Positions 12,269 through 60,587 of a stretch of 64,000 nt of DNA are shown here, in pieces. How positions within the stretch are numbered: the first letter of the stretch is position 1; each line of letters opens with the position of its first letter. Position numbers and translations under genes: made by a program. Origin of the DNA: Lingula anatina. Taxonomy: Eukaryota > Animalia > Brachiopoda. The notes beneath the pieces are model-generated. The model had not been told where the DNA came from. It made no database searches and saw nothing but the letters and a program-made list of their open reading frames with translations. The stretch spans positions 7,564,001-7,628,000 of the forward strand of contig CM120641.1 in the NCBI GenBank assembly GCA_051362555.1, in the 5' to 3' direction.

Positions 12269-12593
12269 ATGGCGAGGGATAAGTTCGAATTTCATGACCC
12301 CGGCACAATTGGTTCCTCTGAGAGTTTTCTGTTCAACGGATCGAGGAAATCGAAAGGATGCCACGTCAGTGTCGTTTCTGGGATTATTCTGGTGTTTCTG
12401 GCCATTGCCATCACGGTAGGGGTTGGGTTGATAGTGCATTTCGCTGGCGATAGAGTAGTGTGTAACTGTGGCACAGGAACTGACGGAAATGGAGGGGATA
12501 ATGACAGACAAATAGGAGTAACATCGAAAACGTCACCGCCCCCTATTACAGAAACAACGTTAGATCCAGATACGAAGCAATGTATCGCAAACT
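12269..12593 (+). CDS. ANPEP: APN-like gene exon 1: cytoplasmic tail, signal-anchor TM helix ([27 protein letters not shown]) and Cys/Thr-containing stalk
   Basis: GCCATGG Kozak ATG at 12269, basic residues before a hydrophobic helix, and a phase-1 GTAAG donor at 12594 that joins in frame to the acceptor at 20768 (…[14 protein letters not shown]…). Confidence 0.85.
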
Positions 12594-13194
12594 GTAAGCA
12601 AAATTTACTTTTTAAAAACCATTTATCTTTGATGAATAAAAGTAAGATATTGATAATGTAAGAAGTCGATGGGAGGTTTAGGTAGTAGAGGGAAAAATTA
12701 TGATTTTGTGTCTCGATTTCTCGCTTTCGCATATCTGCGCAGTTGTAGGAAAGTTCGATCTAGATAATATTATCCATGTTTGTTTAAGCATACCTTATTG
12801 GTACTCTCTGACCATAGGGGCCACTAGTTGTCTGTAAAAGAATTATTGTATCGGTCCGCACTTTAATTCTGTAGAATATTTTGGAGGCCCCTGATAGTAG
12901 CCGGTCCCCAATTGGGCCGTGTCGTAAGATTCCAGGATGTGCCCCGTGTAATTGAATTATTGCTGCTAAAAATTCGATTTGTAAAACTAAGATGTGGCTG
13001 TACTGGTGTAGTCTTCCGACTCCCGAAAACATTGAATCTACGTCTTTTATTTGAATTAGTGTTAGACGGTGTATCGGCTGCCTTGCGAATCCAGCCTGGT
13101 GTCCTGGATGATAGCCGGTTTATATACCGAGAATTTGTTCTTAGGCCAAGACAACGTCAGTATTTGCAGTTTAGCTATCTATGTATAGCAGCCA

Positions 13195-13236
<42 letters not shown>

Positions 13237-16200
13237 AGATAAAAAAGAGGTGCAGCTATTCAGGTGTGTTGATGTTTAGGTGACACGAAACGAGAACCTC
13301 GTGATCATTCGCTAGAAATTTTGTTTCCCGTTGCATTTATCTTTTGGCGTATGTTTTCCTGACCAAAAATTTGTCAGGTGAGGGGAGATATTTTTACACG
13401 CAAACTTGCAGATTGAGAAATGTGTCGTGGCAAATAGGCCAAAATACCCTTTTATCAATAAGATATTTTTTGTAAAGGTAGGTTTTAAAATAATCGTCAA
13501 AGGAATGATCCTAGTCTCATGTTCGCATGTAGAAAACGCAAGCACGCACACATACATGTGTACAATAAGCCCCTTTGTGCCTGACCCATATACACAGAAT
13601 ATTCAATGTTTCCAAAGTGTATGAATTGTATGCAGGTTGATAGTTTTGTTTTAAAAGTGCACACAAACGATTGCAGAAATTACTGATAATTATTAATAAT
13701 TATCATAAATGGATGATACGATGGCATCCGAATGCTACAAATGTTAGAGGACTTCTTTGTGCATTTAGAAATAGAAATAAATGAAAAAAAAATTTGGTGA
13801 TAAATGGAGAGAAAAAGACAGGAATGATTGATTGCATCAGTGCTTAGGACAGTTAATTGTATAACTTACTATAACAAGTATGACTTACCTGGGGATTCTA
13901 TTCAACCAGGAAGGAAAAAATTTAAAAAAAAACAAAAAAAAACGTCAATTAAAGTCCGTGTTATTAGCGAAGTCACAATTGTTGAAATTTGGGTCATTCA
14001 TTAAAAAATAACGACATCCCCTTCTGGGTAAAACGTTAAGGCATGAAGTGTGTTTTACTGTCCTCATTATTGTACGGTTGTGAGGCATATATATGCGGCA
14101 AAGAGAAGGCAGCACGTGTCTAACATATAGATGTTCTTAATTTTTATTGTAGGGGAGAATTCACATTGAGAAGAGCCGAGATCTTGTTAGGCTGCGACCT
14201 AAATATGGCGGACCTATATAAAAGGAAGGCCGCTTAATCCATTAATGGTCTCTCCGCCTCTCACACGCCTCCCCGCGCGTCGTCCCTGCAGGGGCACACT
14301 AATTAAATCTCGGCTCAATTCAACCGGTCGAGGGACGACGCGTGGGGAGCCGTGTGAGAGACGGAGAGACCATTACAGGATTAAGCGGTTTTCCTTTGAT
14401 GTAGGTCCGCCATATTTAGGTCGTGGTCTTATTAGACCTCGGCTCTTCTCGATGTGAATGCTCCCTAGGAGTGCGTTTTTTCACCCCTAACGATTTAGCA
14501 TTATAAGAATTCGCTGTAAAGTCGTTATAAGCAAGAGTCCATCGTGTTCATAATTGTTTTATTTCTAGATCTTAAATGACAGATATGATAGACGACCCCT
14601 TCAATGTCATATAATGGTTATGTCGTTGCACAAAAAAAGTTTGTCATTGGTGGATCCAGGGTTATTTGAAGGGGGTGTCAGCGGATGCGAAGTTGGCCCC
14701 CCTACCCCCCCCCCCCCCCCCCCCCCCCCCCTTGGCGTGGGGCTGGAGGTCCGCTGAAGAGCCCCGAAAATTTTTGGTATTTTAGAGGGCGAACCATTTA
14801 GTACGATTTAGAACTATGATTCAGCGAGTCAAAATTCTAATTTCAAGAGGGGACCATTGTTATGATTTTTTTCAGAAATCGAAGGGGGGGGGGGTCAGGA
14901 ACCCCTAAATCCGCCACTGGTTGTACTAGTAGATACTTTCATGTGTTAATGGCTGTAATACCGACACCCAAAGACGTAAATCAGTCAATCGATCAGCAGT
15001 GGGAAGAGAATAAGTTGTATAATTATATAATCCCAGAACTGATAGTGCATGAAATTTACAATGGTACAGTGCAAGAACACGATCTATTTGCCACAGCGAG
15101 GTTGAGACTGTCTGCGCATAATTTAGAAATCGAGAAAGGAAGGTGCTCTAAGATTCGCAGAGAGGGCCGTTTGTGTATATGCGGGGGCATGCGAATAGAA
15201 GAGCACATATATGTAGTTTGTTACTGTGCAAAAACATCTGAAATAAGAAAAACTTTCCACAGAAATTTTACAATTGTTTTAATAAATGCATATGTGCAAG
15301 AGCTTTCAAAGTGTATAAGATCATGTCTAGACGCAGTATCGTAAAAGAGGGGCTTACTATAGTTTATTATGTTTATTTTCTGGTTAAATTCATTAATATA
15401 CACAAGTCGAACTTTAGGTAGTTGATGCCTAATTTAATTTTTTCATTAATCAAAGAGAAAATCAAATCAAAATGCACAACCCAGTTCAGTATGTCAGTGT
15501 GGGATTTTTAGCATCGATTATAGTAAGTATTTATTTATTAACGCCACATATGATATGAGTACATCACCCGGCCTCATGGGCCTACAAGTCACCGTTCTTT
15601 GTACATATATCAGAAACAGTATAGTATCGGTTGAAATTTCAAGCCGTCTTTCACCATGATGAGTCTCTGCAAATTTTGACGTATTGATATTTTGGAAGTA
15701 CAAGTCGAGCAAATGAGAATTGATTGCAAAACCAGCAACGTTGTTCTAAGACAACGGTTTGTTAACGTAAGAAAAGTTCCTAATTTGATACGGCAAATAA
15801 ATGGGCGTTTCATTTGTGTCGCTAACTATACGTATTGTGAGTCTTATCATTTTGTGGATTGTGGAGAATAAACAGCGTCTGATCACTGACTGCTAATTCA
15901 CAATTCCGCCCCTCAGCATTTGATAAGAGCTCTATCTGATATTTACTACAAAATAAATGTGTAAAGTACAACTTAAATTTGTACGGAAAGATTACGTGAA
16001 GTGTTGACTTACAATGCTATGAAATCACTACCTAGTAGGCAGGTGTTTCTAATATACACTCCCATTGCAAAAAAAAAAGTATTAACGCATATTTGTACAT
16101 TGCAACAAGGGAACCCATAGATTTAATTTTACTATTACATAACAACTACATGTACGCAATTGATCATTGTGTAAATTGGGGCTATGAGTTGTAGAAGACT

Positions 16201-18098
16201 GGTCTGCCTGGCGTCTTAGTGAGAGGGAGACCAGGAACCGTCTACGTCGAGTCAGATGGTATACGGAACTCTGGGATGGACACCAACCAACAACTGGGTA
16301 TTGGTTTTGTTCTCTGAGGAAGGCAGGTTAAGCGTTCTGAGTAGTGATGTACGCGTAAGGGTTTGGAGAACAGCTGGTAAGAAGTAACTTACCAATTTTC
16401 TGCCTTCGGTCGACAGGACGCAGCCCATATAAGTCATGGTAGGGGTGTACTTGCTACTATGGTGTAAGCGAGCTGGCAGTGGTCAACGAGAAACTTAACG
16501 CAGAGCAATGCCTACCCTCTACCAGGGTTGCAGGCAAATTTGACAGAGAATCACATGACTATTTATCTAAAGACAATATCTGTGAGTATCTCGTGAAAAA
16601 TCAATCTGTCGCCCTGGTAGAGGGAAAGCAATCTCTAGGAGTCAGATTATCTCAGACTTGGATCCATCGACATTGGTATTTCAAAGAACAGATGGCGTCA
16701 TCCGGGTTTATGACAGTTACACGAGGTACATTGTGCTGAAATTCCTCATGGCAAAACATTCCCTTTTAGGTCAATGTGGCATTTCTCGCTAATGTATGCT
16801 TCCTTGAACATGATATTTGCTTTTCCTTATAAAGTCCCGATAATTCATCAATACCTTTTAGGTCACTGTGGCATTCATCGCTAATCCATGCTTTCTTGAA
16901 CATGATATTTGCTTTTCCTTATAAAGTCCAGATAATTCATCAATACCTTTTAGGTCACTGTGGCATTCATCGCTAATCCATGCTTTCTTGAACATGATAT
17001 TTGCTTTTACTTATAAAGTCCCGATAATTCATCTTTATAATTGATCACCAGATGGAACCCAAACGAAAAAAAAAGCAAATATACTTTAATTTGAAGTTAA
17101 TAAAACACTAACGGGCTGATTAAATAGTGCATGTTGACTTGTTGAGCTACGTTTGAACTTACTGTTGACTAAGTTTGAACTTATTGAAATTGCAGATGCA
17201 ATATTCTGTTGGAATATTTCATCATCTTTAGCAAAGCTGAAATGCCCCCATTGTTCTTGGACACTAAACACTTCAAAGAGGCGCTGTAAACACGCCCCTC
17301 TAATTTCACCTATAGGTTATCCAAAGCAATTAATATCACATTAAACAGTATCGTCATTCTCGTACAAAAAATTGTTAAAAGTTTAAACTATATTTATGGC
17401 CGTTAAGAGGAACGCCTGATGTGTTAATATTTTAACCATTGAATTGGTGCTGCAATCTCGAAACATTTATGACTATATTTAGTAGAATTCTGTCTCTTTT
17501 ACGTTTTATTCCTTTTATCAGATTTAAAACAAATATTAATGGTTTGAGACATTTGTGTATTGACACCAATAATTTTATCAAACTTAGCTTTTCTAAAATT
17601 TTGCTAAATTCCATTAAGCCAGAAGAACGAGAAAAAATGCTCTTGCATCTCAGTGTTGCCTGCATTTCAGGATTTACGACATTATATTTATTAGCCTACT
17701 CAATATCAAGTGGATGACTGTAAAAATATGGAAAGCTAAACATGGTATTTTTTAATGTAATTGAGATTAGATTCTTAGCCCTTAGCCATTTGTATCAATT
17801 AGAATAGTCATCAGATGAGTATAAAATTCGTTAAACATACATTTATGTAACGAATATGACCTACTTAAATGTTAAAAGCCATTAGACCAACAAGATAGAA
17901 CATGAAAGTAGCTTTTTTTATACTCTTTATTGTCACGTACCTAAAAACCTCCCAAAAAGGATACACATACAAATATACAAATTTTTACTCAATTTCCTCA
18001 ATTATTTTTCTTATCACTGCTTACACTATTTATCTTGCGTAATGCTTCAGGTCCTTGTATCGGGGATTTATTAGTTCATTTCTTTATTTTATTTTATT

Positions 18099-18161
<63 letters not shown>

Positions 18162-18853
18162 TTTTTTGACGAATAGTTCGGAAATATTTCTTGATTTGAT
18201 TTAACTGTCTGTGAGTTGTCATAAGCATTTCACGGTGCCATTGAGTTCCATAGAGGACGAATACAAAAATATATACGGTTTTTGTAATAGTTAAGAGTTT
18301 AACTTAATTCTAGTACTGCCTGCACCATCTACGATTTTTTTTATAAATCAGTAAACCCGTGCAACACCTAATAATGGGGATAATAGGGTGTATCAATATA
18401 ACTAACGTAAAATGATATTTGTGGTGACTTTCCTGTATACCGAGTATATAGAGACGAGCTACTGCTTTGGTGTTTTGGCTTTGGTAGGGTGATCTCGCCA
18501 TGCGCGAGGGGGTTCAGCCAAAAATGATGGAGACTTGACAGGCGCGTGACAAAGTAAAACACGGTTGACGGTCGTGCTCAGTTTGTTTTGTCAGATAACC
18601 ACTCCCCTATGTTATGGATAAGTCATTTGTTTGTGCCTTCTGTTAATATGTGACAGGTTCTGACGACAGACATGAAGAGGCTATTCTTGTTTGTTTATCG
18701 AATGACTATGTAACTATTCGAACAAGACAATTCCTTTTATGGGCTTGGCTGCTGCCAACAGATAATAATTATATTAATGGATCAGGATGACTTCGAAAAT
18801 GGAAGAAGGGGGAAATGATAACAATAAGAACAATGTTAGTAAATAGATAAGAC

Positions 18854-18889
<36 letters not shown>

Positions 18890-21800
18890 TATAATTTGCC
18901 AGTAATTTACGTGTAATTATTTGTGTCAAGATCCTTGAGCTAATGCTTCAAAAGGAAAGAATTAAATATTTTTTTCTGCACATCGTAGAAAGAAATCATG
19001 CACGTTTCCTCACTGAAGAAAATTGATTATCCTTTTTAGCATGTAGGACCTAACTACCGATCTCATTGAATAACCCTGAAAAGTCGGCTATAAAACTGTT
19101 TGACATGTCATGAATTTGAAACGTCCGTGTAAAAACTATTATCAGGTTATGTGAACCATATCGCGTCTTATTCTGAGATTTTTAAACTTGCTGCTTTGAA
19201 ATATCTTAAACCATTAAAAGATAAAAGAGAAAAAAATCTGCCTTGTGTCACTTCGAAATCTGAAATGTTCAGGTTTGGGTTCCTTTTACAATGCACATTT
19301 AAAAGCATGGATCTTGTTTACGTGTATATTAAAATAGTTAATCATTAAGATGAATGGACTAACTTTTTTATATAAAAATAAAGAGAACCAGTAGACCTTT
19401 ACAATATACTGTATGTAGACATATAAAGTAGTTTTCCTCTTCAAGGCCTACTATACTGTAGGCCTACCTTATAAGTTTTTCAGAGTAAACATGCCGCTTT
19501 TTATTGATTAATGCGTGTTGATATTAGATGTAGCCTATGTATCCTTATTAGACAAAAAATTTATATATATACATTTAAGTATAAGCTTCTGCTTAACTAT
19601 GCAGGGGCCCAAAAAAACGCTTTGTGTCATACATGTACGTGTATGTTTTATGGTACAGGGGCGGACCCAGAGATATTTTCTGACAGTCTTCCACATTATC
19701 TTTGTTGATCCATCTAAAATTTTTGACCGTCTTCCGACAGAAAAATTTAGGTACTCATCAATGTAAACTTAGAAATTTGACCGTCTTCCGGAAGACCCAG
19801 AAGACCGCCTCAATCCGCCCCTGTGGTATAAGGGTCTGTCTTGGAAAACCTATCTGAGTGGAGGCTTGAAACGTTTGCCTCAAAGACCACGTGCGTTTTA
19901 GGGTTCAACTGAAAGGGTAATAATGCTTGTCCTATATCCTAAATACATACTGGTACGTAGGCCTACATTCCCAGACCCTATCGTACTAACTTTGGATCGA
20001 AGTATCTCCGAGGGGATTCTCGCTTAATTGCAATTAACTTGGGCGGCTTAGATGTCTGTCACGCCTGCTGAGGCTGATAGGGGGTAATTAACTATCGTTT
20101 AGCAGCTTTAGTGGGCGTCCCAGGCGTCGAAGCCGCTTGGGCTGAAAGCAATTTAGCGAGGGACCCGGTGGAGATGGACCGCGATCCTGCTAGATCGATC
20201 TAGGGATGGGAACCCAGTCTTTAAGCTCCTCGGGCAATGAATGGTGCTTCACAATCGGAGGTTTAGGCGACTCTTTACCTGTATAAAATATAACTGGAAA
20301 ATATGCTCCCTTTTAAGCAGTAAAGATGAATTTTGGAAAAGATTTTGGCAAAGATTGTCTGTTTCTCCCTTGAAAAAGAAAATATGAAAAGAAAGCAGTT
20401 TAGAAAGGTGTACAAAAATTAATTTAAGCGGGTTTAGGTTACTAGTACATCCCATTATACCCCAAAGTGTTACTCCCTGCATCATTACTACCCCGCATCA
20501 CTATTCCTTTGTACTGTTACTTTCCTGCATTGTTGGGGTGTAATGGTCTGGGAATGAAAAGACCCCAATTTTAAGGGGAATTTAAAGCTGAAATCATTGT
20601 TTTGGCCTTCGACAAAACACATAGGAGTCAAAAAGCGAAATTAAGAATTGATGTTTTTTTTTAAGCCTAAGAATTATAGTAAGGGATTTTGAAATACATG
20701 TTTCAATCACAGTTTAATGTTCTTTTTTTCATTAAAATATCTATCACTTCATATGTTTTGATATTAAGGTGAAGCTGGTATCTTTCCAACATGCAGTCCT
20801 GGAACAACAATGGCCAACCCTGGTGTAACAACACCGAAGACTCCAGAAAAAGTAACAGATGTGCGGTTACCTACTGGTCTTATTCCTGTGCACTACAAGT
20901 TAAAACTGCAGCCAGATATGTATGGGGACAATCCAGAAAATTTCCTTTTCAGTGGAGCGGTAGAAATTTTCATCCATTGCCAAGTTAGCACAAACAATAT
21001 CACCCTTCATATTAATAAGCTGACCATCAAGAATTCATCCCTTGCTTTAGTGGAACAAAACGGTAACAGAGTTGTGGATTACAGTCACTACGAGGTGGAT
21101 GAAGCAAGGCAGTTCTTTATTTTACACCTTCGCTCAAGCCTTTCAGCAGGGATGAATTATACACTGAACATGGAGTTTGAGGGTCCTCTTAAACCAGATT
21201 TAAAAGGCCTATATCTCAGCCAATACAAACGTGGAAATAACTCTGTGTATGGCATATATATAAATTATAATAATTATTTTAAAGGAATGAATTTGAATGA
21301 CTGAATAGTGCTTTAACTAGTTATTAATGACTAGATTGCTGAATAAATTTATTTAAGATAACAAGATTTACAAGTAGCTTACTTAAAAACCAAAGATATT
21401 GACACATACAAGTCCCTTCACTATGACCCAAAGAACAAGGCTTAACAAAACAATTTGGCTCCCCTTTTGCATGATATATTTATTTGGGATAATTACAATC
21501 TCGAAAAAAAAAACAAATTATGACCATATGAATACTTTGTGGATGTTCATGTAGATAAAATGAAATATTTTATTGTTGCTATTATAATTTATTTTTCCTT
21601 CCTTTGTAGCTATATAGCTACAACCCAAATGCAGGCTACAGATGCAAGGAAAGCTTTCCCCTGCTTTGATGAACCTGCATTTAAAGCTGTCTTTGAAGTG
21701 ACTTTGGTCAGGAAAGGCCATATGAAATCTTTGTCTAATATGCCTCAAACAAAAACTGAGCTGAAGTAAGTTTTCCAACTATTTGCATTATATTTTTGTT

Positions 21801-24800
21801 TATTTCTTAACAAATGGACTTAATCAAATGCTCAATTAATATATCAGTTTTTTGCAATTTATTTATTACCCCTGTGATAATTTTTAATCGGAGATAAAAT
21901 ATACACCAAAGCAGCCACTGAAATTAATTTTGTGAAGCCCACACCCTTAGATTTTTTAAAAACATTTAACATGTGAAAAGTAGTATTCTTATAAAGAAGA
22001 ATTTTTGGAATCTGTTTGATCAATATTTTTAACAGTAATCGGTCTTTATCAGTGATTACCTGACTTTGGACATGGTTCATGTCTATCAGTATGTTAAACA
22101 TTACCCCATTAAATGTATAATTCATGAATTTTTATCTATTCCAGTGCTGATGGCTGGTATGAAGACCATTATGAGCCCACAGTTAAAATGTCCACATACC
22201 TACTTGCATTTGTCGTCTGTGATTTTGTATCTGTAGAAAAAAATACAACCAAAGGAACAGTGGTAAGGTTGTTGGATAGAAGTACAAATATACCTTCTCT
22301 GAAACAACACATTACAATGACAGTTGTGAATATTTTATTTCATTTAGAGAATTGGTACAATGTACATTCAGATGGCATTTATACATAGAGTACAGACTTT
22401 ATCTGCAATTTTTTAAATGTCCCCCTTCAAGTTAAATAATACACTTAAAGTGTCCAGAAATTTTATGTATTGTAAGGAGAATTTGGATGACATTTTGATA
22501 ATTACTTTATCATCTAACTCACATATTTTGTGAAAATAACTTGCACTGTCATCAAGTTTAATTTGGCAAAAATATCTTTAATTCAATAAAATTTACTTTA
22601 CATTTGCACCGGAGTATGCTGGATAAATTTACTTATTCATTTTAATTGGTCAAAGTTTGTTTTTCAACTAAGCACCTCCTTGGCATTTTACAGAAATACA
22701 GATTAACAAAATAAGAGTGACTGATAAACCTTATCTACAAATATCAAGTTCTAAGCATAAGGACACTAGATCCAGTTCAAGCACAGGAAACATTAATGCA
22801 GCAAACAAAACAAGAGAATGAATTTACTTATTCATTTTAATTGGTCAAAGTTTAATTGTTTTCCACTAAGCACCTCCTTGGCAATTTATAGAAATACAGA
22901 TTAACAAAATAAGAGTGACTGATAAACCTTATCTACAAATATCAAGTTCTAAGCATAAGGACTCTAGATCAAATTCCAGTTAAAGCACAGGTGAAACAAT
23001 GCAGCAAACAAAACAAGAGAATGAATTTATGGCCCTAATTCATGTACCATGATTATAACTTGCACACCTGTGTTTCACACATGGACAGCACTGCAGGATC
23101 TAGTTTAAGCAAGGAGTTACAACAGTTGTAACTCCTTGGTATAAGTGATCTGTATGATATTTTGTAATAACCCCTTTAAGCTTTTGCTTGGATTTATAAG
23201 ACTGATGAGATATTTTAATGATTATGTAAATTAATTTTGAGAGCTGACTTGGAAACAGAACTACCAGATTAGACAGGTAACAGGTATACACTGTGAGGCA
23301 TCACTGTCACTTTTATTTTATGCCTCACAAAGTAAATGAAGTAGTTTATTTGTCACACTGTTCCTACCTGTGCAAAGTAAATAGCACCTGTCAGTTGGTA
23401 AAATCAGCAAGTTACCCACACTTCCAATTTTGGGGGATGTTAATTGATGGAATACACCTGCAGCTTTCACAAGTAGCTAGTGTCAAGTGACCATGCAAAG
23501 TGATCAGAGTACATTTTACTGTAGTGCAATGGTTGAGGTGTAAGCATGACAGGTTAACATTGGCTGATGACTCAATAACTTTTTGACTTTCTTGTGATAC
23601 CAATAGTTAATATACACAATGTGCATGAGTGATAAAATTAAACAGTGTGTTAAATGCTCAACACTTAATGGAGTTGGTAATGATACTCAGTATACATTTT
23701 GACATTTGGTTTAAACCATAAATTATCAAAATATTGAAAAGAGGTGCACAGAAGATCCAAATACAATGACTAACTACCTTCTTTTGGATGCAAAAATGAA
23801 TGACTAATTTGATACATATACATTGTAGCTGTCTGAATTTTTTAAGTATGTTTATACACCATTAGTATACCATAAGTACCTTGTTTGTGCAATGCTGTTG
23901 GAAAAAAACTGAACAGCAAACTAGCTACAATATATTTTTAGGTATAGTAAAAGTATAAGTATACAGCTACTGTAATTGGCCAATTTACTAAGATTCTTTT
24001 ATTGTTTTTTACAGGTGAAAGTTTGGTCAAGACCAGAGGCAATTAATCAAACACAGTATGCCCTTGAGGCAGGAGTTGCCATTCTGGAGTATTTTGAAGC
24101 TTATTATGATGTACCTTATCCTTTGCCAAAGCAAGGTAAGTTAATTTAGGGGTATTTGTATTAACACTTTTTACAAAGATTGTTGATTACATAAATATTA
24201 AAAAATTCTATATTATTAGTTTGAAAAAAATTGTATCAATAGAGACCCAATACAAATAAGTCCTCATTAAAATGAATCCCTGATGGTGGATCGGCTCACA
24301 TTATAAAATTGTATATCAAAACATTACACACCGGTGATCTCTGACTATTCTCAGTTGAGTGATATGGTGTTTTAAAAGAGGTGTGCAGGAATTTTGTTAT
24401 TCAGGATGGATGGGTGTGTGAGGGGATATTTTTAATTTAGTATATAATTTTCATCAAAGTAATTATGCCATTTCTCACTACAGGTTCTAAAGTCAAAACA
24501 TAAACTGGTTATGATTTTGAAAACAGGCATTTAAAATTGTTTGCAATGGATGGATTCTGTTACTAAAAACTTGGGCATTACTGACATATGCAATAAACAA
24601 TTTAAAATCAGTTGTTGTTTTTTTTTCACACATATATATATAGATACGATAAAATAGACTTGGCAGACATAAAGTTTGATAAATCTGATAATGCAATATA
24701 CCATCATTTATTAAGTACCATTTATATGGCCAAACTTTTTTCGTCCTATCTAGACATGATAGCCATCCCAGACTTTGCTGCTGGAGCCATGGAAAATTGG

Positions 24801-27800
24801 GGTCTGATTACTTACAGGGAGACGGCTCTGCTTTATGACCCTGCTGTGTCCTCATTAGGCAACAAGCAGTCTGTGGCCATCATTGTGTCTCATGAGCTAG
24901 CACATCAGGTACTGTAATTTGATCCTTGTTGTTCAACATTTTTTATTCTCTGAAAAAGAATTTTGACAGCATAGAATTTGACTGAAAAGAAAATCTTGGA
25001 TAATGCTTGGCCGACATGCATTTTTGTGAAATGGTACTCTGAAAGTAAAAAAATAAATGCTTGAAATCTTTGGGGGGAAAAAATCACAGAAGTTACTATG
25101 TAAGAAAATGCAACTTAAACCCTGCCTTTTGTGCTTATTTGTGTTAATTGACACTCGAAGAATACGGAGGAAATGTCAAGAGATCTATTGTGTTACATAA
25201 AAAGTTTTTTAGTTCTGCATCTATTGAAACCGTTTGGTAAAAAGATATCAAATGTTTGTACATGAGATGTAGACTCTAAGTACACTCCATTAAACATGAA
25301 TGGAAAGTAAAAAAAATACCAAAAATACTTAGGAGAAAAACAGTGTCAGTATGAGGAAAAACTGTTCATTTTATGAATAAGTATTTGCTTATGTTTTCTA
25401 ACAATATTCTGATATACGAACAGAAAACTAAGCAAATTTTATTATTATTTTCCTTCTAGTGGTTTGGTAACCTTGTGTCTCCACTGTGGTGGGATGACCT
25501 GTGGCTTAATGAAGGATTTGCAAGCTATGTGGAATACCTGGGGGTGGATAACTTTGCAAAAGAATTTAAACTGGTATATAAAATATAATTTTGTAGTAAG
25601 AGGCCAGAATTATCCCATATCCATTTTTAATTAGATTTTTCACTGAATATTAATAAATTATGTATTATTTTCTTCTTTGATATTTAGTTAGTTACTTCAG
25701 GGAAACGGAAGTCACCTGCTTGTAAGCTGTCTAGTATCTTACAAAAATTACGTAAGGAAAGGATAAGATAGTATCAAGATACCAAGATTTCATTGATAGA
25801 TTGTAATTTATTATTGATGTAACATTTTTTCATTCCAGGGGTTGAGATTCCCATCAATAGACATTCAAGGAGTATTCAGACCTGATGGTTTGGCAAGTTC
25901 CCATCCCATCTATGTCCCAGTGGGCCATCCAGATGAGATCATTGAGATATTTGACTCTATCTCTTACAACAAGGTTGGTTATTACAAAACAGTCATTATA
26001 GATTCACAATTTTTACATTATTTACCTCCTCTTTAGATCTGTTAAATGCTGCACTCCACCTGCTTCATTTGCTAATATTATCTCTGTCCCTCGGTTGATG
26101 AACAACTGTCACACATACATCATAGAAAACCCCGCCTCTTTCTCCTTTTATGAATATCTGATGTAGAAAACAACAGTGTCCACCAGAAAGAAGCTAGTTA
26201 CATGTGGAAAAAAAATTTAAATAATTGTGACAATTGAAGGCAAAAGCTGTTTTCCTGTTTCCCCGTTGAAGGCAAATATTGTTCCCCTTTCAAAGTAAGT
26301 GATTTTAGAATCACAAACAATTCTAATAGATAGATTGAAAGTACTTGAAAAAATATAAAATTTTAAATTGTTATTATATCTTTTATTTACGTATGTATGT
26401 ATGTTGTTTGAATGCCATTTTAATGCTATTTTATAATTTAAAATTGGTTTCCAATTATTTGTAGCAGTCTAAAATTACTACCAGACATTGATTCAAAAAT
26501 TGACTTCTGGATCTTATGATGGCAGTAGTACAGACTGCATAAGACTATCAATCAACTTTATAGAATAGATATATGCAAGAAAGCCTCCAATGTTTTATAA
26601 ATCTATATGAATGCACTGTTTTAATCTGTATGAATGCATATTTTTTATCTAGGGAGCATCCATTATCCGCATGATGAGCTACTTTCTTACTGAGGATACA
26701 TTTAGGAAAGGACTTACGGTGAGCTCTACCAAAATTGTAACAATGTATGAAGTTGTATATATATATATATATAAAAGGAAATTCTAGAAACTTGAACCGA
26801 AAAAACTTAAATAAACATTTACATTTGTTTTTGCTTTTGAAAGGCCTCTATACTCTACATGTGGTATCTAGATTGAGATCTGTAATGTGAACTTTACACA
26901 AAAAGCTATACAAACTAGACTTTTTGCATGATTTTGCATGGTGACAGCTTTCATTTCAAAAGATGCTTTACAATTTTCATTTAGAGTTATCTTCGCAAGC
27001 ATGCGTATGATGTAGCCACCCATGATGATCTTTGGACTTCACTGTCTCAGGTAAAGAAGCAGTAGAGAAATATGGAGTAAAATGTTTGAAAATACCCCCA
27101 AAACATGAATAAGTTTTTGTCAGTTCAGAATGGAAGAAATTGTTTATGTGTGTGTACATATACTGAAGATTAACATTATTGTTTCCTCTCTATTTTTTTA
27201 TTAAGATTTTCAAGTGGGACAAACTATTTGAAATCTTCAATTAAAGTGCAACTCATTTCCTGTATAGGAGGCTAGAAGTCACCAAAAACTGAAGGCTTGT
27301 ATGAATAGCACATTCTTGCCACTTTTCCCGGAGTCGATCTTTTAATTTGCTGAATAACTTCTTTTTTTGACATTTTGAACACAGGAGGCTACAGGCATTG
27401 ATGTCAAACAGGTGATGGACACATGGACACTACAGATGGGCTACCCTGTGGTCAAGATAGACCTGGACAACACCACCCCGACTGGTGCTGTACGTGTGAC
27501 CCAGAAACATTTCCTGATTGACCCCTCTGTGGAGCCCAGTCCTAAGTACCCAAGTCCATATAAGTGAGCTATAATCCAACTATTATGTCCAAACAATTAA
27601 TGTTAATTTTACATGTATGAGGTATATTAATTATTACATATGATAGTTTTTAATTCTTTAAAATCTTATGCTTGACTTTGTGTTTAGTATGATAGTGTGG
27701 ATCTGCAGTCACATGACAGGAGAAGAGGTCCTTTTCTGTCAATGTAAATTATTTTCAGCTGTCTACAAAGGGGCAGTCAAATACCTTCATGGTCTATAAC

Positions 27801-30800
27801 ATTAAAGACAGACAGATGGGGTAAACACAGAGTGTTTTCTTTACAAAAATCTCCTGTTATCATGTGACATCTTCTTGGCTAAATAGTTTCATCAAATCAA
27901 TTCTATGTGGCAAAGAAGAGTGCTTACAGTGCACAGTTTATATTTCAAGTTATACTCAGATGACTGATTTTATGAAAATTTCAGTTATAAATGGGAGATT
28001 CCTCTGACATTGACTACCTCCAAGCAACCAAGGTGGGAGGGGAATAGAATCAAGTGGATGTCACAAACAGATAGTAGGAATCATGTTTTATTTTCTATTT
28101 TTAAAGATCTATATAATCACCAAAAAGTTCTCAAACATTGTTATTTTAAATAATTGTAAAATAACCATATAAGCTAAAGTTAATATTTTTACCAATTATT
28201 GATTTTAATGCACCCACCATTCTTTACTTTTTAATATACACTGAAGATTTTTCCACTATACACTTCATAGTTTTTTAATTACCGAAAAACAGTTTTATGT
28301 TTCCCAACTGTTTTGGTCTAGTGTGTGTGTTTATTAACTTTTATAATTTTTTCCTTATTTTTATATAATATATAAAGATATTATGAAATGTTTAGAAAGT
28401 TGATGAATGTTTATAAATACAATCATTTTTTAAAGATTGCTAACTATAACTATTATAGGGATATAAGTAAAATTGTTTCTTAGAATAGGACTTAAACATG
28501 ATAAAATGAATTCTTTCATTGTTTAGATTGAATATATCTAATTGCCTCATTTGGTTTAAGTGATGTTGATAGTTATTCTTTTGGTTTAAAATATTGTTTT
28601 CTAAATGGAATAATTTAGGTATTTAGGTTTTGCAAAGTGCATGGCCAGTTTCAAGACACATTTTGGCTCATATATATATATTTTAAATCTATTATTTTTT
28701 GTTATTTTTTGTATTGAATCCATGACAAAAATGGAAGCAATTTCCCATTTTCCTGATTCATTCTTATGGTGATATTCCATATTTTTTGTGTAGTAACTCT
28801 TGACAAAAGCACTGACCTTGACAACATTGGCAGCAGTGATTGGGTGGTGGCCAACATCCAACAGTATGGCTACTACAGGGTCAACTATAATAAGAAGAAC
28901 TGGGAGAATATTATAAGGCAATTAAGCACTGACCACAATGTAAGTGATTCTTTTTTAAATTAACCTGTAAGTACTTTAATCAAGATTAAACAGATATGAA
29001 TTCATAATCTGTAGAAAGAGAAATTCACATTCACCGCAGCATGTTTTTTTTTCTTTTTCAGATGATACATGTTATAAACAGGGCTCAACTTATTGATGAT
29101 GCTTTCAACATCGCCAGGTTTGTAAACAGAAAGGTTGTTAATAGAGCTGAACTCTTGCAGTGCTTTGTTCAACTATATTTTTGAAATATTTTGTCAGTTC
29201 TTGAATGATCTGGTTATTTATAAATACATGCAGTACCATATAATGAAGCTTTCAGCATTGTTGATTGCAGATTATCATATTTATCCAGGTTGTAACTTGA
29301 CTGATTGTTTTGAATCATTTTGCAACAGTTTAAACTGAATCATGTATGTTTTCATTCAGATCTGGTTCAGACCCAGATGTGGATGTCATACTGGCAATGA
29401 GGACCACCAAGCATTTAGACAAGGACTTTGAATACATGCCCTGGAGAGCTGCACTCAACAATATTGGTTATATACACTCCATGTTGAGCAGAACATCACA
29501 CTTTGGAAATTTCAAGGTGTTTATACTTTTGATTTAAGAAAATAAGGCTTCATCTTCCAACTTCAGCTGTTTAAAGGGAAGACACATTGGCAACATAGAA
29601 AAAAATTATAAATACTGTCCACTTTCTGTTTATGGCAAAAGTGCCATAAAATGTTACTGTAACAACAGTCTGGATTTAATTAAATGTAACAATGATGGAC
29701 TGAAGTGATAATTTAATATTTCACCAGATGTGATAATTTTTTTATATGAATGCTTTCAGGCTTATATGCTTGGTCTGATTCTTCCATTGTACAATAGACA
29801 TGGATGGGCAACTATTGATGACCCTGTGGAGAGGTACGTTTCCTTGGAATCTTAAAAATTGTTTTTTGTCATATACCAATAGCCATATTTTGTGTTTTCT
29901 TTGGATACTGTTGGTGTTTGTGTGTTTGAAGCTAAATATTGAACTGTGGAGAACTGGAGCATATGCAGATCACTCTGTGCATCATAGAAAAATGATGATA
30001 AGGCTCAGATATATGCATATTTTAACTTGTTTTAGTTTCAGTGAAGTATTTAATAACTTTATCAGAGCATGGCACCATTGATAACAATTTTCAAAATATT
30101 TCCAGCTTCAGCAGAACCAGTGCGATAGGCCACGCCTGTGCCTATGGACATCAGCATTGTCTGGATGAAGCCACTAAGCTTTTCAGGCAGTGGATGAACA
30201 CACCCAACCCAGATGCAAATAATCCGTAAGTAACTTAATATCTCACCCTCAGTTTCCATTTCCAGTAATTGCAAAAGGGAGATTTTTGCTTGAAGCTTGT
30301 TATTGAATTAAGGTATTATACATTTACCATAAAAATTTAACTATATGAAAAATAACTCTTTATTGTTTTATCACAAGGCATCATGTTTTTTGTTTGAAAC
30401 AATTTTGTTGTAAAATTTATTGAAGTTACAATAAAAAAATCTAATTTTATCGATTGATTTGATGTTATCCTAATATGTACGTATATATCTCATTATTATG
30501 GCAATAAAGAATGAATTTACATTTACCAAAAAAAAAAAGTTAGTGCAGTTAGTGTAGTCATGGATGTACATGGTTGTGCAAAGCTGTTTTGGTGCCCTCT
30601 TCTGGCAAAAACATGACTCTTTTTTGAAGAAAGTGTATATGTTTTCTTTGAATGGTAATAAATTCAAATTTTAGGATCAAGGTTGACCTGAAAAGTTTGG
30701 TGTACTGCTATGCCATCAAAAATGGAGGGCAGGCTGAATGGGACTGGGCCTATGAGAGATATAAGAAAGCCAATGTCGCTGCAGAGAAATCTAAGCTGAT

Positions 30801-33800
30801 AGTAGCCTTGACCTGCTCTAATGAACCTTGGATATTGAATAGGTGAGAGTTGAACATATAAAGATGGAAATTACATGGAATCTTATGCAACTAGGCATAG
30901 TCAAAATAGTATCTGTAAAACAAATAGGTAATGGACCTCTAAGGTGATACATATTTTTTGTCAAAGAATAGAATTAGGTGATAGAGACGAGTTTTACAAA
31001 CAAGATATATTACACAATTTTAAGTTGCATACTTTAATTTCTAAAAAATATAAACAATATAAAAAAACATGATTTTAAAACTTAACCATAAATTATTTGT
31101 AACATGTCAATGTAATGCAGTCCTATACTAATGGGAAATAGATATATAATGGTAAATCGTATCTGCTGTCCAATTTTAACCAAATCTACTTTTTCTTTGA
31201 TGAAGGATATGATTTAATTTCCCACTCATTGCCAGTCAAGAAATTCTTAAACAGTTCAGTTGAACTTTTATTTATTAATTTATTTGGTTGTTGTGCTAAA
31301 TTTTTATCTCCCATTTAAACAGATATCTGGAGTATTCAATGGACAGGAAAGAGGTGCGTCAGCAAGATGCAGTTTCAGTGATGGCCAACATTGCAGGGAA
31401 TTCTATTGGAAAATCAATGGCCTGGAATTTCTTCAGGGCAAACTGGGACAAGATATTTGCTGAGTAAGTAAAGATTGAACTCATCTGAAAAGCAAGTAGA
31501 TACCACATGATGATTTTCAACTTTTGAAAATTGCATTGAAATGTTAAAAAAACTGAGATTGCTACATGTAGTTTTGGTGTATGTGTTATGTTGCATACAT
31601 TTGCATTTATTTTGTAAGCTTATTATGACTAGACCATTTCGTAATGAAAAATTCATACACTGTATTTGTTTTAAATGTTTGTGTGCAGATTTTATGTTGG
31701 ATACATTTGCATTTATTTTTAAGACTATATATACTAGTAACTTAATGAAAATGGCATATTTCTTTTTGGCTTCACAGGTATTTTTTTAAATAAAATTTAA
31801 CACAAAATTAAGTTCCTTAACATCAGTGATGTTTACTACTAATTGGATCATATTCTCAATCCCTTTCATAACTTCACATTACAGCATAACATATCAACTT
31901 TTGAATCTTTTCTTTATTTGTCTAGTAACATTCATCATTCATTCAACAGTTAGCTAGCATCGCTTATTTCATTATTCAATTTTTGACAATTATCCCCCAG
32001 AAAACAGTGTTCATCATGTTATGGGCAGACAAGTCTTGGTCAATCAAACTATTATGAAAGAGCTCTTTCAGAACAGCAGACTAACAGATCCGTGGATTGA
32101 ATATGGGTGACCCACTTGAATGCTTGTTGGGTAATCCTCGTGGGGAATCTATTCGGCGTATAATCAGGAATTAAGCAGCAAGCTTTTTAGTGGGTTGAAG
32201 TATTTGATCTAGGGATCTGTTAGTCACTGTTCTGAATGTGCTTCAAGTGAAAATGATTCCCCTAAAGCTGCATTTCATCTTTATATTATACATATCAATG
32301 TGCTTGCAAATGGTTCTTAATTCTAACATGCTTGGGTGATGCTACCAATGTGCCAGGTTAATACTAACATCTACTAACATGGCAGTATTTGTTTTTAGGT
32401 TTGGAGGTTTGTTTTCCTTTGATACCCTAATTTCAAGCATGACTGGTGGCTTCAATACTGAATTTGAACTAGAACAGGTAAGACAATGCTTTGGGATCTG
32501 CTCTAATCCTGACTGACTGGGGATAGTTTGGAAATGATCTTCTTGAAAGATGTTTGTTTTATAGATATGGTAGTGGGCCATTTGACTTCAGTACATTAAT
32601 ATCAAGTGTGACTAGCTGGTTCAACACTGAATTTGAATTAGAGCAGGTAAGATTTGAAAAAAATGAAAATTCAAAGCAAGATTATTATATATTATATATT
32701 ATGTAGATCATGATTCACGAAACAATTAACAAGCATATACTGCTGTCAATATGTTTTTAACATTATGTCCTTGAAAAGTAATAATGGTAATGTTATGGTA
32801 TGGTCCTGATTGAATTTTGATTATGAAAGATTGCTCTGTTTTTATGCATGATGGCATGTGTAGACAGTGGCTGCATTCAGAACAGTGGACTAACTTGTCG
32901 CGGGTCAAATATGGCGACCCACTAAATATGAAAAGCTTGCCATCTAATCCACTAATAGACACTGGTAAAGACATGGTAAAGTATCAAGTAAGTCCACTGT
33001 TCTGAATGCGGCCAGTGACCCTATTGCTTAGGTATAGCATCTTTTCTTTAATCCAAGGGTCTTGGGTTGAAGTCTGAGCACATCGATCCCTATTTATTTA
33101 TTCTATAATTTCTTTGAAAAAAAAATTTGGGGGTTGTCTGGTACTTTATGAATACTCATCACTCAATGTACTAAATTAGAATTAAGCCAGTTTTATTCAA
33201 ATTTTAGCTTCAAGCTCTGATGTCTAGCAAAGGGAATCTGGGATCTGGTCAGCGTGCCTTTGAACAAGCTGTGGAGAAGACACGGGCAAATATCAAGTGG
33301 ATGCAGGCCAATGAACAGAAACTGGGAGATTGGCTGAAAAGTGGAGGGATGTAAGTGTTGTGAACAAGGTTGAGGAGATTATTGCGATTCCCTGAGTCCT
33401 AGAATCTTATGTGATTTATATGATTTATAGAAGAATTATACGATCCTTGTTTTGAGATATGTACTGTAATATGATAGGTGAATTGATTTATTTGAACCTA
33501 CTACACTAACACAGAACACTAAAGAGAGAGAGATTTAATGGGGCCCATTTTATAGTGGTGTCAACAAAAGGAATTAGTCGGCTGCCTTTTAGAAACCTGG
33601 GGATGATGATAAATATGTGTGTGCATATCATGCATGACAAAAATTAACTGACCACATTCTTAAGTAATTAAGAAAAGCAGTTTCATATGTTTTGTTTTTC
33701 TTTCCTGCAGAACTCCGGACCCTGGAACTTCAAATGATGTCCGTCTGCCTTCTACCTTACATCCAGTGTACTATAAACTAGATCTAAAACCTGATATTTA

Positions 33801-39800: not shown

Positions 39801-42800
39801 ACAGAGTGCAGAACTTGATTTTTTCTATTCTTTCCAAGTTCGACAGAATTACCAGATTTTGATTGTTGCTTCAATTTTTTCAAGGGACCACTCTAGTGGG
39901 TTTGTGGAAGTTATTTACCAGAGTAGAAATAAAGCAGCAGTGGGTAGAGTACAAGAGCGTTTTCAATGCCCTGGCCGGGGATCTTCAGATAGCTTTTGTG
40001 AATTAGTTTTTATCAATTATGTGTAAGTTTACATAAATATACAGGAATCACCAGGAGTGAGAGATGAAGCTAGCATTCGGTCATGTGCTTTTCAGATTTT
40101 TTGTTACAAGTAATGTTGTATTTGTACATTTACAGCTCAGTGTTGTAATATTTAGAATCCTGCATTCCATTTTATTTTGATGACTGATATGATCAAATTA
40201 CATGTAGTAGTAAAATGTGATTAAAGTTTTTACATTAATCAAAATTCTTGGCTTTATACTCATTTACAACTTTGTTTAAGTTATTCTTTTTAACCTTTCA
40301 CCTTCTTTTGCAGAAATACATGTTAGGCCAGATATTACCTCTGTACAACAAAGTTGGTTGGGAGGATACTGGAGATCATATTGAACAGTATGTAATATTG
40401 CATTTATCTGTCAAAATCATAACAACCAACAAATCCTCCAGCACACACACAAGTACCATATCCTCTCAGGCTTGTAGCCAACAATTTTCAAAAAAGAGGC
40501 TCTTTTTGTGAAAAAGTGCTTCTCCACCCTTAGTCACCCTGAGCTTCAGAGCTAACTTGACACTAACCTTTTCACTGTAGCCTATCTCCATCGTGTCAAG
40601 TAACCTCTGACCAGATTCGATTGCCTCCGCCGCCCGCCAATCAAATTTAAAAGCCCGCACTCAATGACTCATTAAACGATCTAGCCAATGAACGCGAACG
40701 AGTCAAAGCGCGCTTTGTTCAAATCCGGACCAATCAAAGATAAGGCTGAATATCAGGGTCTTGCCGTAACCTGTGGGCAGCACGCAAATAACATCGTCTC
40801 TCAGTAGATAATGATGCAGGGCATCATACTGCTCTGGTTTCAATTCCGATATACTCCATGCTTTCTTTGTGTACGGTTATGCACTCGGAACCACTCGGAA
40901 CTACTCGGATGTCTCCGCACTCGACAATAACTATGTTGTTAGTATGGAGCTTGCGGAATCAGCCGAGGATTGCCGATTGACGATCAACCAATCAGCGTTT
41001 TCACCAAACTTTGGTGAAAAATTTTGAAACATGGATTCGATTGGCTTATATAAAATAGGTCAAACTATTTTCGTCAGAGGTTACTTGACACGATGGAGAT
41101 AGGCTACAGTGAAAAGGTTAGTGTCAAGTTAGCTCTGAAGCTCAGGGTGCCCTTAGTTGACCCAAATCGACAAATAGAACCAAAGCCAAATTTTGATTCA
41201 GAAAGGACCTTTCCCTATCAGAAGGACAGCTCTTTGTAACTCCCTAAACTCCCTGCCTACAGGTCACTCCTCTCATTCCACCTCTTCAGCTAAAACATTT
41301 TTACTGAACATATTTCAGGTACAACCGTATAAATGCCCTGTCAAAAGCCTGTGACTATGGACACCAGCCATGTAGAGACAAGGCTAGTGAGATGTTCACT
41401 GCTTGGATGCGTTCTGCTAATCCAGATATGAACAACCCGTATGTATCTTATTTAAATACTTTGTAAAATATTTTTCAGTAAAATTACTCATTTTTTTTTT
41501 TAAATTTAGATTAAGATTATCTGGCTAAGATTATCTGTAAGCACAAAGTTATTATTTACTTTGCATTTTTGTTCATGGTGCTGATTTTGAATTATAGAAT
41601 CATGTATGTGTTCATTAAATTTAATGTTTTATTAAATATGGAAAAAGTAGTGTAATATAACTTTTTCAATGTTGAATTTTCTTAATTTTGCAGAATTGCC
41701 CCTAACCTCAAGTCTCTGGTGTACTGCAATGCTATAAAAAATGGAGGCAGTGCTGAATGGAATTTTGCCTATGAGAGATACAAGAAGGCCAATGTAGCCT
41801 CCGAACAATCAAAGCTGCTATATGGACTGTCTTGTAGCACTGAAACCTGGATTTTGAGCAGGTGAAAGGAAATCTGAACATTGTTTAGCTGAAAAGAAAT
41901 AATGAATTTATGGCAGATTGTGTTATCCAATAAGATGGGGCAAAACATATCAAGTGAAATTCATGCATACCTCATCCCTATTTTGCATCAGGTTTTTATA
42001 TTCTGATTTTGGTGGATAACTTTTTTTTTGGTTCGAAAACCATTTGTTTCATTTGTTTTAGGTCAGCAGTCAACAAAATAATCATTTAGTATTCTAGGCA
42101 TGTGAGGCTTTTAATCCAAGTAGATTCAAGTTTCCTTGATAGAATATCCCCCAAATTATACTTTGTTTAATATGAAATTATATATAATTGATCAAAAAAA
42201 AGTTTGATGAATTGAAAAAAAAGTTCTTTTTAATGCACAGATATCTAGATTATGCCTTGACTCCAACTGAGGTACGAAAACAAGATGCCACATCAGTAAT
42301 ACGCTATGTTGCAAGGAATCCAATAGGTAGATGTCTTGCCTGGGACTTCATAAGAGAGAAATGGACATATATTATTGGAGAGTAAGGAAATGTGTTGTTT
42401 TGTATGATGTTTAATATGTTTTAGCATACTTTTACTACTGTCTATCAAAGCTACACCATCTTGGGTTCTGCCACAAAGGAACACTTACTAGATTGTAACT
42501 GTTTTTTTAGGATGATCTGTTAAAATGTATTTTCATTTAAAACAGTTCCTGTTATAAACTTATAAAATAATGATTTGCTGTTATTACATTAGATTACTTG
42601 CTGTGACAAGTGTTTTTCTATTGGTTTCAGTTATGGCAGTGGCTGGTCCTTCTCTGGCCTGATAGACAGCATCACTGGTAGCTTTAATACACAATTTGAA
42701 CTGGATCAGGTATAGAGTCAATTCTAGGAATGGAACTTTCCTGAAAAGCAATTTCAGTTTGTAAAACAAATTTTAGTCATCGTTTTTTCCTAAATGTGGT

Positions 42801-43409
42801 GTACATAAATTGAAACTAAGCTGCTTGAGCATTTCTGTTTTGGTTTCCTACTTGCAAATGTAACTCACAGTATTGTTCCTCTAGTAATATTTAATTTTAC
42901 CAATAAGTTAAGTTTTAGGAATGAAAAGAATTTAATATATTTCAGATTTATACTAACACCATTTTCATTCCCTTTTCAGCTGAATGCATTTATCTCCAGC
43001 CATGACAATCTGGGATCAGGTCAGCGTGCCTTTGAACAAGCTGTGGAGAAGACGCAAGCAAATATCAAGTGGATGCAGGCCAATGAAAAGAAACTGGGAG
43101 AATGGCTGGCAGCAAATGTAGAGTAAGTGTCTTATCTGTCCAGAAAATGAAAGCAGCCTTAAAACAGATCAAATATCAGTCAACCAATCTTTTGTCTTTC
43201 ACTGATGATTTTCTTGTACTGCTTGAGATGGAGAATATATAATAAAACAAACAAACAGACAAACAAAAAAAGGGTACTTTTCACCAACTGGTTTCATTTG
43301 TATCATTAGGTATCTTTTAATTGGTTGTCATAGAGGAGAACAATGGTTATATACTCAACAATAGGATTGTTGACACACACATGTATGCACGCACCCAAGC
43401 ACGCACGCA

Positions 43410-47708: not shown

Positions 47709-47789
<81 letters not shown>

Positions 47790-60526: not shown

Positions 60527-60587
60527 GTAAGAGATATTCATGACATGGAAAAAATTAGACTGTATTCAGATTTATTACTGTTATTTA

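What the first reader, a model, noticed from the sequence alone, without database searches (positions are those of the whole stretch)
32399..32646. Mutually exclusive exons swap the [18 protein letters not shown] substrate loop in module 1
Seen: two paralogous intact exons, 79 and 82 nt long and 87 nt apart, both phase 2 to 0, so joint inclusion frameshifts. They encode FGG-LFSF... versus YGSGPFDF.... Candidate branch points in the intervening intron (CTAAT 32503, CTGAC 32509 and 32513) lie only about 30-40 nt from exon A's donor, consistent with steric exclusion. Exon A has two perfect TACTAAC sites upstream. Established (from memory of human APN structures): the domain-IV 891-YGGGSFSF-898 loop caps the S1 pocket and orders on substrate binding. 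Inference: splicing retunes module 1 specificity. Modules 2 and 3 hard-wire other loop variants (YGSG-WSF and YGGGSFSF), giving four loop variants in one gene.
Basis: partly seen in the sequence, partly recalled or inferred. Interest (0 to 1): 0.75.

Follow-up and report, generated by a model that had tools for sequence, protein, structure and literature searches.

The report
Either/or exons swap peptidase pocket lid
In a brachiopod gene for a multi-unit aminopeptidase, two old duplicate exons encode alternative versions of the loop predicted to lid the enzyme's substrate pocket; one is spliced in regularly, the other was seen spliced in only once, and the choice likely tunes which peptides the first unit trims.

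Summary
Exons A (32399-32477) and B (32565-32646) are intact paralogues, 87 nt apart, in module 1 of a tandem aminopeptidase N gene, 98% identical to a Lingula anatina RefSeq protein that uses B only. Including both or neither frameshifts. Synonymous sites are saturated (pS 0.77) while pN is 0.18, so the pair is old and both were constrained. B is joined to both neighbours in two runs of one study. A appears spliced in one read pair and unspliced in two, all from another study with no B reads. No A-B joint was listed, at low depth. The exons encode the equivalent of the human APN 891-898 loop; the capping Phe is kept in both, its neighbours differ. Steric exclusion and changed specificity are untested, and conservation in relatives could not be checked. 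Side result: three clam APNs show either/or isoforms at the GAMEN exon instead, and decayed GAMEN copies flank live ones here. The scan noted an either/or pair earlier in another aminopeptidase gene, not this one. Verdict: likely real mutually exclusive exons, a new member of a known kind.

The parts
31323..31463 (+). Constitutive exon upstream of the pair (domain IV, ends in phase 2)
   Evidence: Pfam ERAP1_C; joined to B in reads
32362..32378 (+). Two TACTAAC branch-site consensus copies (10-nt tandem repeat), branch A 32 and 22 nt before exon A
   Evidence: function inferred
32399..32477 (+). Exon A, 79 nt, 7-residue loop FGG-LFSF plus following helix; not in the RefSeq protein
   Evidence: one read pair starts sharply at 32399 and runs on unlike (X1); two unspliced pairs (X2, X3)
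32478..32564 (+). 87-nt intron between A and B, the shortest of 21 module-1 introns (next 122 nt)
32565..32646 (+). Exon B, 82 nt, 8-residue loop YGSGPFDF plus following helix; the form in RefSeq XP_013400083.2
   Evidence: joints 31463>32565 (6 reads) and 32646>33208 (5 reads) in X7; loose ends in X8 (5 and 6 of 6 reads)
33208..33350 (+). Last exon of module 1; spliced on to module 2 at 33711
   Evidence: joint 33350>33711, 5 reads in X7
12269..33350 (+). N-terminal anchor exon and module 1 of the tandem aminopeptidase N gene (GAMEN exon 24754-24908, HEXXH..E intact)
   Evidence: the link between the first exon and 20797 was not resolved
42631..42709 (+). Single loop exon of module 2 (79 nt, YGSG-WSF)
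54961..55042 (+). Single loop exon of module 3 (82 nt, YGGGSFSF)

Best explanation
Exons A and B are an old tandem duplicate of the domain-IV loop exon in module 1 of a multi-module aminopeptidase N, and they are likely spliced either/or, giving two module-1 enzymes predicted to differ in the loop that lids the S1 substrate pocket. Shown: both exons are intact, only single inclusion keeps the frame, B is spliced to both neighbours, and both exons have been under protein-level constraint. Thinly shown: spliced inclusion of A (one molecule). Inferred: exclusivity is enforced at least by the frameshift (double-inclusion mRNA would be degraded), perhaps helped by the short intron; the choice differs between samples (A in one study, B in the other); and the swap (7 versus 8 residues, Leu versus Pro before the capping Phe, Ser versus Asp after it, Gly-Gly versus Ser-Trp in the next helix) shifts N-terminal residue preference or catalytic rate of module 1 only.
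For: Frame logic. A versus B: 12 differences at about 15.5 synonymous sites and 11 at about 62.5 non-synonymous sites, Fisher p = 2.5e-5; this divergence is as deep as module 1 versus module 2 over 13 other exons (pS 0.68, pN 0.18), so A is neither a recent copy nor long dead. B junction reads in X7 and X8. X1: 2 of 2 laid reads (one pair, 99+% alike) start at 32399 with zero depth in the bin before, run on unlike, one reaches 32477, none touch B. In one search the same run has depth equal to 3 reads ending at 31463 and 11 rather than 13 bases in the bin past 32464, the same 2-base shift the aligner gave the B>33208 joint (arithmetic), which fits an A>33208 joint. The region aligns without gaps to YGGGSFSF of solved mammalian APNs; Phe896 caps S1 (passage in PMC6222927). 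This loop is among the variable spots between modules and species (289 segments collected). Related clam APNs use equal-length isoforms that differ only in another pocket-lining exon.
Against: Only 1 of the 3 read pairs on exon A is spliced; the other 2 (X2, X3) still carry the upstream intron. No A joint reached the 3-read listing threshold. RefSeq has a single protein with B (cluster of 1 member). A versus B use differs between studies, which could be genotype and not tissue; a rough Fisher test on spliced molecules (1 versus about 9) gives p = 0.1. No duplicated loop exon or loop-exon isoform was seen in the same-gene or same-cluster sets I aligned (9 sets, 8, 1) nor a tandem loop peptide among 298 proteins (its one hit repeats a longer 112-residue block). 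The capping Phe is unchanged. Other duplicated exons in this gene (GAMEN copies) have decayed.
Confidence: 0.6

Rival explanations
1. Exon A was once a working alternative but is now a rarely used leftover; B is effectively constitutive and A is on the way to the decayed state of the extra GAMEN exon copies in modules 2 to 4.
For: All 22 junction observations above threshold are for B (6+5 in X7, 5+6 in X8); 2 of 3 A pairs are unspliced; RefSeq lacks A; decayed GAMEN copies show that this gene loses duplicated exons.
Against: A has no stop, frameshift or splice-site damage despite saturated synonymous divergence; in the study where A is seen no read touches B (0 of 6 laid reads in X1-X3), which is not what leaky use of a minor exon predicts; consensus branch sites are kept.
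Confidence: 0.2
2. The either/or splicing is real but changes something other than S1 preference, such as domain-IV closure, stability or contacts between modules, because the capping Phe is shared and half of the changes fall in the helix after the loop.
For: Phe at the 896-equivalent position in both exons; D/S, M/V, G/S and G/W differences lie beyond the loop. The paper passage ties the loop to closure of domain IV as well.
Against: The loop part differs most, including its length; MXE-variable residues generally cluster at functional sites (PMC7954323 abstract and passages).
Confidence: 0.15
3. Exon A mainly serves regulation: slow splicing or retention of its upstream intron, or A+B inclusion leading to decay, lowers output of the gene in some tissues.
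For: 2 of 3 pairs on A retain the upstream intron while these runs show little else on this stretch; A+B gives a stop three codons into B.
Against: A regulatory exon would not need low non-synonymous divergence; no A>B joint was listed; pre-mRNA reads are common at this depth.
Confidence: 0.05

Closest known systems
[quoted passage not shown]
   Same: Duplicated exon swapped by splicing in an enzyme, with a change of substrate as the proposed outcome.
   Different: For coq-2 the functional switch was shown experimentally; here nothing is assayed, the enzyme is an M1 peptidase, and only one of several tandem catalytic modules is switched.
General class of tandem-duplicated MXEs (PMC7954323, passages; PMC5740500, passages; PMC9741552, search listing only)
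   Same: Variable residues near a functional site; exon length not divisible by three, so double inclusion frameshifts (60% of human clusters); short intervening intron.
   Different: Neither of the two papers searched for the word mentions an aminopeptidase (0 occurrences). The steric rule (<50 nt from donor to branch point) is met only if the distant YTRAY sites are the ones used.
Two-module APN-like genes of Ruditapes philippinarum (XP_060551723-5), Mercenaria mercenaria (XP_053377176-8) and Mya arenaria (XP_052782181-2)
   Same: Tandem APN in a lophotrochozoan with equal-length isoforms that differ in one pocket-lining exon of module 1 only.
   Different: Their swapped segment is the GAMEN exon (e.g. 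[24 protein letters not shown]), not the domain-IV loop. Either/or use is inferred from protein isoforms; I did not see their DNA.
Human aminopeptidase N (CD13), loop Y891-F898 (PMC6222927, passages)
   Same: Same loop position and capping Phe; module 3 carries the identical eight residues.
   Different: Single catalytic module; no alternative exon for this loop is known to me (recalled, not tested).

Membership tests
Homologous mutually exclusive exons | Adjacent paralogous exons coding the same protein segment | tested here: met
Homologous mutually exclusive exons | Intact splice sites, same phases, open frame with either exon | tested here: met
Homologous mutually exclusive exons | Exon B spliced to both flanking exons, skipping A | tested here: met
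   X7 joints of 6 and 5 reads; X8 loose ends of 5 and 6 reads
Homologous mutually exclusive exons | Exon A spliced to both flanking exons, skipping B | tested here: inconclusive
   one read pair in X1 with a sharp start at 32399; partner exons inferred from bin depths; below the joint-listing threshold
Homologous mutually exclusive exons | No productive joint inclusion | tested here: inconclusive
   A+B frameshifts; no A>B joint listed in 6 runs, but depth is low and the threshold is 3 reads
Homologous mutually exclusive exons | Both exons under purifying selection | tested here: met
   pS 0.77 versus pN 0.18, p = 2.5e-5
Homologous mutually exclusive exons | Pair conserved in related species | not testable with these tools
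   no animal genomes can be searched; no second brachiopod protein appeared among the listed hits
Steric-hindrance MXE | Used branch point less than 50 nt from the upstream donor | tested here: inconclusive
   YTRAY at 29-39 nt, but two AGs lie downstream of them and 8 of 21 acceptors lack YTRAY; lariat data needed
M1 aminopeptidase N | GAMEN and HEXXH..E motifs with Peptidase_M1_N and ERAP1_C domains | tested here: met
M1 aminopeptidase N | Zinc-dependent removal of N-terminal residues | not testable with these tools
   needs an assay

The most novel reading that the evidence does not exclude
Lophotrochozoan tandem aminopeptidases build a combinatorial specificity repertoire at two levels: whole catalytic modules with different fixed pocket lids, plus tissue-switched either/or exons on either wall of the S1 pocket (the domain-IV lid here, the GAMEN exon in clams, with decayed GAMEN copies here marking a lost second switch). 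These would be natural single-exon swap experiments on how M1 peptidases set specificity.
Probability: 0.3. Interest if true: 0.7.

Novelty: new member of a known kind. Interest (0 to 1): 0.45.

Why it matters
If the two forms differ in preference, this is a natural, otherwise identical pair that tests directly whether the APN 891-898 loop sets S1 specificity, a loop of interest for M1 inhibitor design. It adds an exon missing from the RefSeq protein, and with the clam GAMEN isoforms it suggests that exon swapping at the pocket recurs in invertebrate tandem aminopeptidases. The mechanism class itself is well known, so a splicing specialist would not be very surprised.

Tried and rejected
No genome is held for this window, so paralogous genes elsewhere could not be checked. 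No indexed RNA holder was listed; 6 of 9 offered raw-read runs were laid (X5, X6, X9 not), at about 6% (X1-X4) or 25% (X7, X8) of each; X4 showed no depth on these exons. A homologue search with the upstream exon found nothing; the HMMER search gave only distant fragments, at best 60% identical. Idea that module 2 kept an A-type and module 3 a B-type exon from an ancestral pair: lengths fit (79/79 and 82/82) and A is nearer to module 2's exon at synonymous sites (pS 0.49), but exon-wise pS between modules 1 and 2 ranges 0.27-0.91, B is no nearer to module 3's exon, and no remnant of a second loop exon was found in the introns of modules 2 or 3 (best 21 of 200 shuffles reached the score; HMM scan): not supported. 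RNA structure over the pair is no better than shuffles (z = 0.70). A 14-nt pairing between A's branch region and B's acceptor tract is one of 27 such pairs in 1.7 kb: treated as chance. The stop codon overlapping each module's last donor is common to phase-2 GTAAG introns of this gene and is not special. A bacterial promoter scan is irrelevant for an animal. No structure was predicted, so loop-to-pocket geometry rests on sequence alignment. Paper searches found nothing on either/or exons in aminopeptidase N or on this Lingula gene; the library lacks most subscription journals, the primary human APN structure paper was not held, and no supplements were opened, where MXE catalogues could list such genes.

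Full report
What is there. The window holds a plus-strand gene made of an N-terminal membrane-anchor exon (from 12269) and tandem M1 aminopeptidase modules: module 1 (20797-33350), module 2 (33711-43123), module 3 (43503-55438) and the first half of a fourth (55813-60568) that is 95-99% identical to module 3 in DNA. The C-terminal half of module 1 is 98% identical to RefSeq XP_013400083.2, 'putative aminopeptidase-2 [Lingula anatina]', so the host is this brachiopod or a very close relative. Multi-module APNs are common in invertebrates: most of the 120 proteins listed of 775 hits are 1,600-3,300 residues long.

The observation. Exons A (32399-32477, 79 nt) and B (32565-32646, 82 nt) are as described, with AG and GTAAGA ends and an 87-nt intron between. 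Either one keeps the frame open from 20798 to 33350; both or neither give early stops. They share 18 of 26 aligned residues; their flanking introns are unrelated. The intron is the shortest of 21 in module 1.

Age and constraint. Between A and B, synonymous sites are saturated (12 of about 15.5) and non-synonymous sites are not (11 of about 62.5) (Fisher p = 2.5e-5). That equals the depth between modules 1 and 2 over 13 other exons (pS 0.68, pN 0.18). A neutral copy would not show this pattern, so both exons coded protein for most of their history. It cannot exclude a recent loss of use.

Expression. Nine raw RNA runs of the same species label were offered, none an indexed holder; I laid six, each sampled at 6-26%. 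Study P3: X7 shows joints 31463>32565 (6 reads, 5 starts), 32646>33208 (5 reads) and 33350>33711 (5 reads, linking modules 1 and 2), with zero depth on A. In X8 all 6 laid reads cover B only, 5 continuing into the upstream exon and 6 into the 33208 exon. Study P1: in X1 both mates of one pair begin exactly at 32399, are 99+% alike, run on unlike, and one reaches 32477; X2 and X3 each have one pair that reads unspliced from the upstream intron into A; none of these 6 reads touches B. Bin depths for X1 fit three reads ending at 31463 and a cut at 32475, the same two-base shift the aligner gave the B>33208 joint, so that molecule is probably upstream-A-downstream; this is inferred, since joints under three reads are not listed. 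X4 (study P2) shows nothing on these exons. No A>B joint was listed. The split by study is suggestive, but rests on one spliced molecule (rough p = 0.1) and could reflect tissue, stage or genotype. The RefSeq protein uses B and is alone in its cluster.

What the exons encode. The B-containing stretch aligns without gaps to the YGGGSFSF loop and next helix of solved mammalian APNs. [quoted passage not shown] A reads FGG-LFSF and B YGSGPFDF: the capping Phe is shared, while loop length, the residue before it (Leu or Pro) and after it (Ser or Asp), and four positions beyond differ. Module 2 has Trp at the cap position and module 3 the human-like loop, so four variants exist in one gene as claimed. 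Across 289 homologous segments the loop is varied and 45 are one residue short like A; A scores 21 bits on a profile of these, against 24-35 for the other three. No structure was modelled.

How exclusivity is kept. The frameshift is shown; decay of A+B mRNA is inferred from general knowledge. Steric exclusion is open. The YTRAY sites lie 29-39 nt from A's donor, inside the 50-nt limit used by PMC5740500 (passages). Against it, AGs at 32525 and 32548 lie between those sites and the real acceptor, a looser TGAT site sits at a normal distance near 32537 (read from the sequence), and 8 of 21 acceptors in this module have no YTRAY within 60 nt. No special RNA fold was found.

Relatives. No animal genome could be searched, so conservation of the pair is untested. 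In 18 sets of isoforms or cluster members that I aligned none showed a swap confined to the loop exon, and no tandem loop peptide was found among 298 proteins. However, the two-module APNs of Ruditapes, Mercenaria and Mya have equal-length RefSeq isoforms differing only within the GAMEN exon of module 1 (8-15 residues). In this window, broken copies of the GAMEN exon flank the live one in module 2 (35819-35881 and 36146-36201) and modules 3 and 4 (49037-49147, 57800-57910), at 71-77% DNA identity; none was found in module 1. Their codon-position patterns are mixed, so whether they were once live alternatives is unsettled. This supports a recurring tendency to duplicate pocket-lining exons, and also shows that such copies can die.

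Comparison with what is known. It works like coq-2a/coq-2e (PMC7434440, abstract seen) and fits the general finding that MXE residues cluster at functional sites (PMC7954323, passages). Five searches found no paper on either/or exons in aminopeptidase N or on this gene; the library lacks most subscription journals and I opened no supplements.

Verdict. Observation confirmed; either/or splicing likely (about 0.75-0.8), with a change of substrate preference the most likely purpose (0.6 overall). New member of a known kind; interest 0.45.

Noticed in passing
window 35819-35881, 36146-36201, 49037-49147, 57800-57910: Decayed partial copies of the GAMEN exon flank the live GAMEN exon in modules 2, 3 and 4 (71-77% identity, truncated or frameshifted); possibly a lost either/or cluster.
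   Followed up: partly
P0151/P0153/P0155, P0169/P0277/P0279, P0171/P0281: Ruditapes, Mercenaria and Mya two-module APN isoforms of equal length differ only in the GAMEN exon of module 1, changing residues just before and within the motif. No paper found.
   Followed up: partly
window 55813-60568 versus 43481-51818: A fourth module, 99% then 95% identical to module 3, stops near 60570 at a 1.2-kb repeat also found at 4699-5874. Loose ends in X7 match the end of module 3 joined to a next module (46 reads), far more than for module 1, so the gene likely continues, or 3' bias or collapsed copies are involved.
   Followed up: partly
window 32061-32242 and 32865-33017: Two related palindromic MITE-like elements, the only two found in the window, sit one in each intron flanking the A/B pair; reads from other copies pile on them. 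No role tested.
   Followed up: partly
window 49170-49325: Module 3 reads DFPAGAMEN where modules 1, 2, 4 and the RefSeq protein read DFAAGAMEN: allele, error or variant beside the substrate motif.
   Followed up: no
window 25452-25548 versus 49509-49605 and other exons: Synonymous divergence between modules is very patchy (pS 0.09 to 0.91 by exon), suggesting gene conversion between modules.
   Followed up: no
window 32254-32477: The unspliced X2 fragment ends exactly at exon A's donor; coincidence or a splicing intermediate.
   Followed up: no
window 12593-20797: The anchor exon ends in phase 1 and the next mapped exon starts in phase 2, so at least one small exon in this 8.2-kb gap is unmapped; the RefSeq model lacks this whole 5' part.
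   Followed up: no
window 3668-3865 and about 8880-8970: Exons of a signal peptidase-like (S24/S26) gene upstream of the aminopeptidase.
   Followed up: no
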